NCBI RefSeq assembly: GCF_009914755.1
Contig: NC_060926.1
Source: the human T2T-CHM13v2.0 reference genome, Homo sapiens
Length of the DNA: 64,000 nucleotides
Reading direction: 5' to 3' (one strand)
Part shown: piece after piece, positions 39,503 to 40,220 of the stretch
Layout: every line of letters begins with the position of its first letter
How positions within the stretch are numbered: the stretch's first letter is position 1
The notes under the pieces: generated by a model
Told to the model about the DNA's origin: nothing
The model's database searches: none
The model's input: only the letters and a program-made list of their open reading frames with translations
Position numbers and translations under genes: made by a program

Positions 39503-39815
39503 GGCCCAGTGCTGTGGCTCACGCTTGTAATCCTAGTGCTTTGGGAGGCCAAGGAGGGAGGATTGCTTGAGGCCAGGAGTTTGAGACCATCTTGGACAAC
39601 ACAGTGAGACCATGTCTTCACACAAAAAAATGTTTTTTTAAATTACCCGGGCATGGCAGTACACAACTATAGTCTTAGCTATTCAGGAGGCTGAGGCAGA
39701 AGGATCACTTGAGCCCAGGAGGTCAAGACTGCAGTGAACCATGAATGATTGTGCCACTGCACTCTGGCTTGGGGACAGAGAGAGACCCTGTCTTAAAAAA
39801 AAAAAAAAAAAAAAA
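39503..39815 (+). mobile_element. AluJ-type element (antisense to ERBB4) with A21 tail
   Basis: J-type features (ggattgcttgaggccaggagtttgagacc; cccaggaggtcaagactgcagtg). Confidence 0.95.
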
Positions 39816-39853
39816 CACACACACACACACACACACACACACACACACACACA
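39816..39853. repeat. (CA)19 microsatellite in the Alu tail, read as (UG)19 in the pre-mRNA
   Basis: Directly abuts the A21 run at 39795-39815. Confidence 0.99.
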
Positions 39854-40220
39854 TTGATAAAAAAAAAAATAAAAAAACCAAAAACAAACAAAAGCCCTTG
39901 TCATAGGGAGGATCTTAAGAAGAAGAGCCCCTTCTTTTGTCTTAATAAAAACAAACAAATAAACAAAAACCCTCAAGCATCATGTCAAAGATACCACCAT
40001 GTCAAGCCAATATCCTGAGACTACAATCATTTATCATCAAGTAGCAGCCGTTGTTAGAAGTGATGTTGATCCTTGGTAAATTGCAACCACAGTAACCTTG
40101 TCATATCATCACAAAATTCTCGCACTATATCATTTAGCTATGAGATACTTCCTTAACTTGTGTCCATAGGGTTTTCTCTTCTATGTTCAATCACATAAGG
40201 AAAAAAGTTATGCATAGAGG

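What the first reader, a model, noticed from the sequence alone, without database searches (positions are those of the whole stretch)
39647..39890. CFTR-like (TG)19 T21 acceptor feeding a complete antisense-Alu cryptic poison exon: candidate TDP-43-repressed exon in ERBB4 intron 25
Seen: the pre-mRNA reads U-rich...AUCAA-(UG)19-U21-AAGACAG|GGUCUC..., with no other AG for ~100 nt upstream. A donor CGG|GUAAUU (GT at 39646-39645) lies 141 nt further on, where the Alu consensus has CTAATT. Spliced to exon 25 (phase 0), exon 39787-39647 encodes GLSLSPSQSAVAQSFMVHCSLDLLGSSDPSASAS then TGA (39685-39683). Using the upstream AAG gives 145 nt and a frameshift. Established: antisense Alu right arms exonise through these AGs; TDP-43 binds UG repeats and represses exons, as at the CFTR TGmTn acceptor; hnRNP C covers Alu U-tracts; ERBB4 loss-of-function variants are linked to ALS. 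Inference: TDP-43 or hnRNP C loss could include this exon, giving NMD or a tail-less receptor, and TG/T length polymorphism could tune it.
Basis: partly seen in the sequence, partly recalled or inferred. Interest (0 to 1): 0.8.

Follow-up and report, generated by a model that had tools for sequence, protein, structure and literature searches.

The report
Silent Alu pseudo-exon in ERBB4 intron
An old Alu repeat lying backwards in a long ERBB4 intron carries a (UG)19-U21 tract, splice-site look-alikes and an in-frame stop, so it could in principle become a harmful extra exon, but nothing found here shows that it is ever used or that TDP-43 is what keeps it silent.

Summary
On the ERBB4 strand there is (UG)19, U21, AAGACAG|G, a 104-nt AG-free zone and a CGG|GUAAUU donor 141 nt on. 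An in-frame TGA follows phase-0 exon 25.

The element is the most diverged of 14 Alu copies in the window and lies antisense to ERBB4. Its A-tail became an A21-(CA)19 compound microsatellite. The layout recurs. (TG)8T12 occurs 137 times in the genome, and 31 of the first 60 sites abut an antisense Alu tail. Eight of those, this one included, have an acceptor plus a donor.

The splice signals are ordinary. 52 of 1600 intron GTs score as well, and 12 comparable pseudo-exon pairs lie in the same intron.

The TDP-43 part is untested and less likely than hnRNP C repression. A U21 tract is a prime hnRNP C site, TDP-43 knockdown did not exonise cryptic Alu exons, and the CFTR effect is tied to a short T5 tract. 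ERBB4 is missing from every splicing or Alu-exon table that I could search, but those systems barely express it.

Verdict: a real but ordinary, probably silent pseudo-exon. Interest is low to moderate.

The parts
39505..39794 (+). Body of a full-length dimeric Alu, sense on the + strand and so antisense to ERBB4. It is the most diverged copy in the window.
   Evidence: blastn against the window finds 13 further copies at 69-82% identity. Alignment of the 14 copies is. The copy differs from the window majority at 62 of 279 columns (22.2%), the highest of the 14. Two sub-threshold Metazoa_SRP (7SL) hits lie on the + strand at 39504-39620 (E 8e-9) and 39646-39796 (E 1.2e-5).
39795..39815 (-). U21 tract on the pre-mRNA (A21 of the Alu tail). 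It is the polypyrimidine tract of the candidate acceptor and the predicted hnRNP C binding site.
   Evidence: Zarnack et al. report the strongest hnRNP C sites at tracts of 9 or more U.
39816..39853 (-). (UG)19 on the pre-mRNA, (CA)19 on the Alu strand. A microsatellite that grew in the Alu tail and a predicted TDP-43 binding site.
   Evidence: TRF reports period 2, 19.5 copies, 100% matches; one search confirms. Alu-tail origin is supported by the genome sample.
39854..39893 (-). U-rich remnant of the older tail (U11, U7, U5) ending in AUCAA. It holds the only two yUnAy branch-point candidates in the AG-free zone, with branch A at 39870 and 39858, 83 and 71 nt from the exon start.
39788..39794 (-). 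AAGACAG, the twin Alu acceptors: proximal AAG| (39793-39792) and distal CAG| (39789-39788).
   Evidence: It corresponds to the GAGAnAG| / TGAG|AnGG Alu 3' splice-site motifs quoted in Attig et al. methods, with the first G changed to A.
39647..39787 (-). Candidate 141-nt pseudo-exon in the antisense right arm. With the proximal AG it is 145 nt.
39683..39685 (-). In-frame TGA, codon 35 of the pseudo-exon when it is joined to phase-0 exon 25.
39641..39646 (-). Intronic part of the donor CGG|GTAATT. It is not the canonical Alu donor; the canonical ACAG|G site reads TATAG|TT in this copy.
   Evidence: Crude PWM score is 6.25 bits, against 5.9-12.5 for annotated donors in the window. U1 duplex energy is -7.4 kcal/mol, against -4.3 to -13.6 for annotated donors.
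39624..39630 (-). U7 of the Alu linker, 178 nt from the centre of U21. A possible second contact for hnRNP C.

Best explanation
This is an old Alu, inserted antisense to ERBB4 in intron 25, whose poly-A tail has turned into an A21-(CA)19 compound microsatellite. Read on the pre-mRNA it gives (UG)19-U21 in front of the standard Alu acceptor. One C-to-G change gives a moderate, non-canonical donor 141 nt downstream.

The result is a pseudo-exon that would put a stop codon into ERBB4 after residue 1045. Most likely it is silent. The continuous U21 tract should be covered by hnRNP C, which blocks U2AF65, as at other antisense Alus. The branch point is pushed 71-83 nt away by the repeat. TDP-43 probably sits on the (UG)19, but it is at most a second, dispensable lock.

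Shown: the anatomy, the Alu origin, the frame and the stop. Inferred: the protein binding and the silence.
For: Alu identity, orientation and age:
- 14 copies in the window, and this one differs from the window majority at 22.2% of columns, the most of any.
- 7SL-like hits on the + strand.

Tail origin of the repeat:
- (TG)8T12 occurs 137 times in the genome; the reversed control pattern occurs 146 times.
- Of the first 60 listed sites, 31 are followed at once by an antisense Alu starting at its tail end.
- 17 of those have an AGAC[AG]G-type acceptor, and 8 (this locus included) also have a donor of at least 6 bits 50-200 nt on.

Ordinariness of the signals:
- 52 of 1600 GTs in intron 25 score at least as well by a crude PWM.
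- 31 of 1600 pair with U1 at least as well.
- 12 acceptor-donor pairs from 9 distinct acceptors of like quality lie in the same intron.

hnRNP C as the guard:
- The strongest hnRNP C sites are tracts of 9 or more U, and U2AF65 gains most at long U-tracts after HNRNPC knockdown. TDP-43, TIA, PTB and hnRNP A1 knockdowns did not exonise the four cryptic Alu exons tested (passages of PMC3629564).
- Shorter U-tracts mean less hnRNP C repression, and expressed Alu-exons have median tracts of 10-13 nt (passages of PMC5115870).

No ERBB4 entry was found in the held supplements of five catalogues.
Against: The signals are not bad.
- The donor lies inside the range of the annotated ERBB4 donors in the window.
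- The acceptor has an 82% pyrimidine stretch and a 104-nt AG-free zone.
- (UG)19 is far above the length said to bind TDP-43 well (a (TG)12 allele).

The negative catalogue searches have little power. HeLa and i3 neurons barely express ERBB4; baseMean was 26 in Brown et al..

I could not run MaxEntScan or SpliceAI, and I saw no CLIP or junction data for this locus.

In one table of PMC12982666, ERBB4 is strongly down (log2FC -2.98, baseMean 3858). I attribute this to cell-type composition, but I did not identify which comparison the table belongs to.
Confidence: 0.65

Rival explanations
1. TDP-43 bound to (UG)19 is the main repressor of this acceptor. Nuclear loss of TDP-43 lets the exon in, which sends ERBB4 mRNA to nonsense-mediated decay or yields a receptor truncated after residue 1045. 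TG/T length variation tunes the effect.
For: A (UG)19 tract abuts the pyrimidine tract of a usable acceptor, in the same order as the CFTR (TG)m(T)n site. TDP-43 cryptic exons are flanked by UG runs. 7.2% of TDP-43 binding sites lie in Alu elements. Alu is the commonest repeat family near TDP-43 cryptic exons in i3 neurons. The stop and the phase are correct.
Against: - The tract is U21, not the T5 that the passage seen ties to impaired U2AF65 at CFTR. Only the CAGGG half of the CFTR hnRNP A1 silencer is present.
- hnRNP C remains in place when TDP-43 is lost, and TDP-43 knockdown exonised none of four cryptic Alu exons.
- Humphrey et al. found TDP-43 cryptic exons not linked to transposable elements.
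- UG enrichment is at the donor end of cryptic exons.
- ERBB4 is absent from the splicing tables searched and is up, not down, in TDP-43-depleted i3 neurons (log2FC +1.34 at low counts).
- TDP-43-low cortical nuclei are more than 95% excitatory.
- Mouse Erbb4 falls in inhibitory neurons after TDP-43 depletion. By general knowledge mice have no Alu, so any dependence there does not need this exon.
Confidence: 0.1
2. It is an hnRNP C-dependent cryptic Alu exon of the usual kind. It is silent normally and included only when hnRNP C is depleted or the U-tract shortens. TDP-43 is irrelevant.
For: The U21 tract plus a U7 178 nt away. hnRNP C cryptic exons all derive from antisense Alu. Competition with U2AF65 is strongest at long U-tracts.
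Against: The canonical Alu donor ACAG|G is destroyed in this copy and the substitute donor is only moderate. The branch point is 71-83 nt away. ERBB4 is absent from the list of 3100 Alu-exons plus UCSC-annotated ones, though that list comes largely from HeLa.
Confidence: 0.3
3. The UG repeat matters, but not through this exon. It is one of several deep-intronic TDP-43 landing sites in a very long gene ((UG)19 here and (UG)23 at 19088..19043). These help to sustain processing of long introns, and the Alu splice-site look-alikes are incidental.
For: There are two long UG runs on the sense strand of the same intron. Mouse Erbb4 is down in inhibitory neurons two months after TDP-43 depletion, and by general knowledge mice have no Alu. 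That TDP-43 sustains long-intron transcripts is recalled knowledge (Polymenidou et al. 2011, not read here).
Against: No binding data were seen for this locus. ERBB4 was up in TDP-43-depleted i3 neurons, at low counts.
Confidence: 0.15

Closest known systems
hnRNP C-repressed antisense-Alu cryptic exons (Zarnack et al. 2013, PMC3629564; Attig et al. 2016, PMC5115870)
   Same: An antisense Alu in an intron. The tail-derived U-tract serves as the pyrimidine tract in front of the proximal/distal AG pair. The exon lies in the right arm and carries a premature stop. The long continuous U-tract is expected to bind hnRNP C.
   Different: The canonical ACAG|G donor is dead, and a C-to-G change 20 nt further on supplies the donor. 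A (UG)19 microsatellite separates the U-tract from the branch-point region. It is an old, 22%-diverged Alu that still has U21, whereas old expressed Alu-exons have short tracts. No expression evidence was found.
CFTR exon 9 (TG)m(T)n acceptor repressed by TDP-43 and hnRNP A1 (PMC12171016, passages seen; Buratti and Baralle 2001, recalled)
   Same: The same order of parts: UG repeat, U run, a few purine-rich bases, CAG|GG. The UG length is well above that of the (TG)12 allele named.
   Different: In the passage seen, the CFTR effect is tied to a (TG)12T5 allele whose very short tract presumably impairs U2AF65; here the tract is U21. The CFTR exon is a real constitutive exon with a bipartite hnRNP A1 silencer (CAGGGAU...UGGGGAAU); here only CAGGGU is present. 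As far as I recall the CFTR tract is not Alu-derived (not tested).
TDP-43-repressed cryptic exons of ALS/FTD (UNC13A, STMN2 and others; PMC8891020, PMC8891019, PMC5446763, PMC12262666)
   Same: A non-conserved intronic sequence with usable splice sites next to a UG run, and a predicted premature stop and NMD.
   Different: In those exons the UG runs are enriched at the donor end, and the exons are not tied to transposable elements. This candidate has the UG at the acceptor, is Alu-derived, and is in none of the tables searched.
Microsatellites born in retrotransposon A-tails (PMC3812793, search listing only; Arcot et al. 1995, recalled)
   Same: The (CA)n sits inside the A-rich tail of an Alu. 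31 of 60 sampled (TG)8T12 sites in the genome have the same relation to an Alu.
   Different: Nothing differs. This is the ordinary origin of the repeat.

Membership tests
Antisense-Alu (right-arm) exon / pseudo-exon | An Alu element lying antisense to the host gene inside an intron | tested here: met
   Sense Alu on the + strand at 39505-39794, ERBB4 on the - strand (hub annotation).
Antisense-Alu (right-arm) exon / pseudo-exon | 3' splice site at the GAGAnAG| / TGAG|AnGG motif behind the tail U-tract | tested here: met
   AAGACAG| with U21 upstream; the first G of the motif is A.
Antisense-Alu (right-arm) exon / pseudo-exon | 5' splice site at the conserved ACAG|G site | tested here: not met
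   This copy reads TATAG|TT there. The candidate donor is a different site, CGG|GTAATT.
Antisense-Alu (right-arm) exon / pseudo-exon | Inclusion in some transcript (needed for 'exon', not for 'pseudo-exon') | not testable with these tools
   No RNA data are held. ERBB4 is absent from the Alu-exon tables searched.
hnRNP C-repressed Alu exon | A continuous U-tract of about 9 or more at the acceptor | tested here: met
   U21 at 39815-39795; threshold taken.
hnRNP C-repressed Alu exon | hnRNP C crosslinking, and inclusion on HNRNPC knockdown | not testable with these tools
   No CLIP or knockdown data are available for an ERBB4-expressing cell.
TDP-43-repressed cryptic exon | A UG-rich tract in or next to the exon | tested here: met
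   (UG)19 lies 28 nt upstream of the exon start.
TDP-43-repressed cryptic exon | UG tract at or near the donor end (typical of the class, not obligatory) | tested here: not met
   The donor flank is GTAATTTAAAAAAAC with no UG run. [quoted passage not shown]
TDP-43-repressed cryptic exon | Inclusion on TDP-43 loss | tested here: inconclusive
   ERBB4 is not in the splicing tables of the held supplements. Expression is very low in those cells, some files were not searched, and Seddighi et al. 2024 is not held.
CFTR exon 9-type (TG)m(T)n acceptor | A UG repeat directly followed by a U run and the 3' splice site | tested here: met
CFTR exon 9-type (TG)m(T)n acceptor | A short U run (T5) that weakens U2AF65 binding, so that TDP-43 dominates | tested here: not met
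   U21 here; the requirement is taken.
CFTR exon 9-type (TG)m(T)n acceptor | A bipartite hnRNP A1 silencer at the exon start | tested here: not met
   Only CAGGGU spans the junction. No second G-run follows (the sequence reads GGTCTCTCTCTGTCCCC).

The most novel reading that the evidence does not exclude
This locus may be one of a few dozen 'double-locked' Alu pseudo-exons in the human genome. In these, a (UG)n microsatellite born in the Alu tail would put TDP-43 directly beside the hnRNP C-covered U-tract. In TDP-43 proteinopathy the class would be partly released. Because both tracts are length-polymorphic, the degree of release would differ between people. For ERBB4, an ALS19 gene, that would make the compound repeat a personal modifier of receptor dosage in ERBB4-expressing neurons.
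Probability: 0.08. Interest if true: 0.6.

Novelty: new member of a known kind. Interest (0 to 1): 0.25.

Why it matters
If the exon were really released by TDP-43 loss, it would link the commonest ALS pathology to dosage of a familial ALS gene, and it would offer a polymorphic repeat as a testable modifier. As things stand, it is one more of the many guarded Alu pseudo-exons in long neuronal introns.

The useful by-product is that the (TG)n-Tn-Alu layout is a small recurrent class: about half of 137 genomic (TG)8T12 sites by extrapolation from 31 of the 60 sampled. That class could be screened as a whole in existing TDP-43 and hnRNP C knockdown data.

Tried and rejected
- Full-text searches for ERBB4 with 'cryptic exon'/TDP-43, 'Alu exon'/'hnRNP C', CLIP/intron, 'poison exon' and 'exonization'. 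No listed title suggested an intron-25 exon, and none of the papers I opened describes one. The ERBB4 passages I read concern ALS gene panels, NRG3 splicing, a variant-induced 89-bp cryptic exon in intron 3, LTR-driven transcripts in lymphoma, interneuron markers and mouse expression changes.
- A search for TDP-43 with 'antisense Alu' (listing only) showed no paper on TDP-43-guarded Alu exons as a class.
- Supplement searches: no ERBB4. ERBB4 appears in gene-level tables only.
- A search of the PMC12982666 supplement for the estimated hg38 coordinate prefix found only decimals. The hg38 position was estimated from a recalled gene coordinate.
- RNA folding of 39900..39600 gave z = 0.26, with 60 of 100 shuffles folding at least as well. 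No structure is worth invoking.
- Sub-threshold Rfam hits to mir-3135, mir-1268 and mir-1285 are taken to reflect the Alu sequence (recalled Alu relation of these families), not miRNA genes here.
I sampled 60 sites by coordinate instead.
- MaxEntScan and SpliceAI are not available. My PWM uses recalled frequencies and is only a ranking aid.

Full report
**1. Observation**

A U-rich stretch ends in AUCAA. It is followed by (UG)19 at 39853..39816, U21 at 39815..39795, and AAGACAG|GGUCUC.

The two AGs lie at 39793-39792 and 39789-39788. The next AG upstream is at 39898-39897, so the AG-free zone is 104 nt.

A GT at 39646-39645, in the context CGG|GTAATT, closes a 141-nt interval, 39787..39647. 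The annotated coding sequence downstream of exon 25 sums to 792 nt, so exon 25 (47112..46942) ends in phase 0. The interval then reads GLSLSPSQSAVAQSFMVHCSLDLLGSSDPSASAS and stops at TGA, 39685-39683. Using the upstream AAG gives 145 nt, a frameshift and another early stop.

**2. What it is**

The interval is the antisense right arm of a full-length dimeric Alu.
- blastn of 39505-39794 finds 13 other copies in the window. Seven of the 14, this one included, lie antisense to ERBB4.
- Both arms give sub-threshold 7SL (Metazoa_SRP) hits on the + strand, at 39504-39620 and 39646-39796.
- The copy differs from the majority of the window copies at 62 of 279 columns (22.2%), the highest value of the 14. 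It is therefore an old insertion.

The acceptor sits at the position that Attig et al. give for Alu 3' splice sites (GAGAnAG| and TGAG|AnGG), with the first G changed to A (methods section of PMC5115870).

The donor is not the canonical Alu donor. The ACAG|G site reads TATAG|TT in this copy. The candidate donor lies 20 nt further on, where 10 of the 12 other copies covering the column have C, and 8 of those 12 read exactly CTAATT.

**3. Where the (UG)19-U21 comes from**

On the Alu strand the element ends in A21, then (CA)19, then TTGAT and more A-rich sequence. In other words, a dinucleotide microsatellite sits inside an Alu tail.

The pattern (TG)8T12 occurs 137 times in the whole T2T genome; the reversed control pattern occurs 146 times. 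I fetched the first 60 of the 100 sites listed. Results:
- 31 are followed immediately by an antisense Alu beginning at its tail end.
- 17 of those have an AGAC[AG]G-type acceptor.
- 8, this locus included, also have a donor of at least 6 bits 50-200 nt downstream.
- Four or five more sites abut an antisense Alu left arm.

The juxtaposition is therefore a by-product of Alu-tail evolution and defines a small recurrent class. It is not a one-off. A review's abstract, seen only in the search listing, says the same in general terms (PMC3812793).

**4. How good the splice signals are**

I could not run MaxEntScan or SpliceAI. I ranked sites instead with a crude donor matrix built from recalled frequencies and a U1 duplex energy.
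- The donor scores 6.25 bits, against 5.9-12.5 for the seven annotated donors in the window. 52 of 1600 GTs in intron 25 do at least as well.
- U1 pairing is -7.4 kcal/mol, against -4.3 to -13.6 for the annotated donors. 31 of 1600 GTs are at least as stable.
- With a simple acceptor filter, intron 25 holds 12 acceptor-donor pairs from 9 distinct acceptors of comparable or better crude quality. The pseudo-exon as such is unremarkable.
- The only yUnAy branch-point candidates in the AG-free zone are 71 and 83 nt from the exon start, because the repeat pushes them away.
- Folding shows nothing special: z = 0.26.

**5. Who would keep it silent**

Passages of Zarnack et al. (PMC3629564) state the following:
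- The strongest hnRNP C sites are continuous tracts of nine or more U.
- U2AF65 gains most at long U-tracts when hnRNP C is removed.
- TDP-43 has 7.2% of its sites in Alu elements, against 25% for hnRNP C.
- Knockdown of TDP-43, like that of TIA1/TIAL, PTB and hnRNP A1, did not exonise the four cryptic Alu exons tested.

Attig et al. report that shorter U-tracts mean less hnRNP C repression. Expressed Alu-exons have median tracts of 10-13 nt, and the oldest ones have the shortest.

This copy is old yet keeps U21, with a U7 178 nt away and a U16 358 nt away. That is the profile of a strongly guarded element.

[quoted passage not shown] In i3 neurons with TDP-43 knockdown plus NMD inhibition, the UG runs are enriched at the donor end of cryptic exons, although Alu is the commonest repeat family nearby.

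**6. The CFTR analogy**

The order of parts is the same. But the passages of PMC12171016 tie the CFTR effect to a (TG)12T5 allele, whose very short pyrimidine tract presumably impairs U2AF65. They also tie it to an hnRNP A1 silencer, CAGGGAU...UGGGGAAU, at the exon start.

Here the tract is U21. Only CAGGGU spans the junction, and no second G-run follows. The locus looks like CFTR but fails the two features that give TDP-43 its leverage there.

**7. Published data on ERBB4**

Among the papers returned by the five ERBB4 full-text searches, no listed title pointed to an intron-25 exon, and none of those I opened describes one. The nearest item is a variant-induced 89-bp cryptic exon in intron 3.

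ERBB4 is absent from the held supplements of the following:
- the TDP-43 plus NMD-inhibition study (2 files);
- the frontal-cortex Alu exonisation study (2 files);
- Humphrey et al. (2 files);
- Ma et al. (12 of 14 files searched);
- Attig et al. (3 files).

In Brown et al. ERBB4 appears only in an expression table (baseMean 26, log2FC +1.34, 'upregulated') and in what looks like a second, transcript-level count table (baseMean 0.76). One of the 8 files was not searched.

In PMC12982666 it appears in an expression table (baseMean 3858, log2FC -2.98). I saw one of what are probably three rows, in a file that was cut when stored, and I did not identify the comparison. The same paper says that TDP-43-low nuclei are more than 95% excitatory neurons. 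Another paper lists ERBB4 among markers differentially expressed across inhibitory neuronal populations. A composition effect is therefore the simplest reading.

Mouse Erbb4 falls in inhibitory neurons after TDP-43 depletion. By general knowledge mice have no Alu, so that fall cannot involve this exon.

These negatives are weak, because the cell systems used barely express ERBB4. Either might bear on the claim.

**8. Consequence if it were used**

With either AG the transcript gains a stop well upstream of two or three further junctions, so nonsense-mediated decay is expected (inference from the standard rule).

A protein that escaped decay would end after residue 1045 plus 34 foreign residues. 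It would lack the tail that translates, which includes the PPPAYTPM segment of the 48-nt exon and the C-terminal TVV.

**9. Verdict**

The object is a real but ordinary antisense-Alu pseudo-exon with an unusual tail-born (UG)19.

My estimates:
- 0.65 that it is silent and that TDP-43 is dispensable for its silence.
- About 0.3 that HNRNPC depletion would release it.
- About 0.1 that loss of TDP-43 alone would release it.

It is a new, unconfirmed member of a known kind.

Noticed in passing
window 19088-19043 (- strand) and flanks 19102-19035: A second long UG run, (UG)23, lies on the ERBB4 sense strand in the same intron, about 90 nt beyond the tail of a sense-oriented Alu (19183-19434). It begins in GGG|GTGTGT (6.17 crude bits) and is followed at once by GGA|GTAAGA (4.29 bits), which resembles the real donor of the 48-nt exon 26 (GGA|GTAAGT). 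CATAG| and AGAG| acceptor look-alikes lie at 19102 and 19100. A UG run at the donor end is the commoner layout of TDP-43 cryptic exons.
   Followed up: partly
window 20267-20230 (- strand): A (CA)19 run lies on the ERBB4 sense strand. CA repeats are the motif by which hnRNP L is said to repress cryptic exons (title and abstract start of PMC5959245 in the listing). The run was found.
   Followed up: no
window 37224-37174, 42356-42244, 16797-16639 (- strand): Three pseudo-exon pairs in intron 25 have clearly better crude donors than the candidate: GAG|GTAAGT 11.6 bits, AAT|GTAAGT 8.9 and AGG|GTAAGG 9.1.
   Followed up: no
window 39163-39454: A second antisense Alu lies directly downstream in the same orientation, with U16 and GAGACAG|TCCC. 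No donor of 6 bits or more lies within 50-250 nt of that acceptor. Inverted copies lie at 37417-37683 and 41637-41911 and could pair with either Alu in the pre-mRNA.
   Followed up: no
window 39712-39775 (- strand): A sub-threshold Rfam hit to mir-3135 (51.4 bits against a gathering score of 80) lies inside the pseudo-exon, with weaker hits to mir-1268 and mir-1285 nearby. I take these to reflect the Alu sequence; that these families are Alu-related is recalled, not tested.
   Followed up: no
L005, L026, L028, L038, L040, L043, L052 (genome sample): Seven other (TG)n-Tn-antisense-Alu sites have both an acceptor and a donor of 6 bits or more. In five of them the donor has the CAG|GT form of the canonical Alu 5' site. 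Their host genes and orientation are unknown.
   Followed up: no
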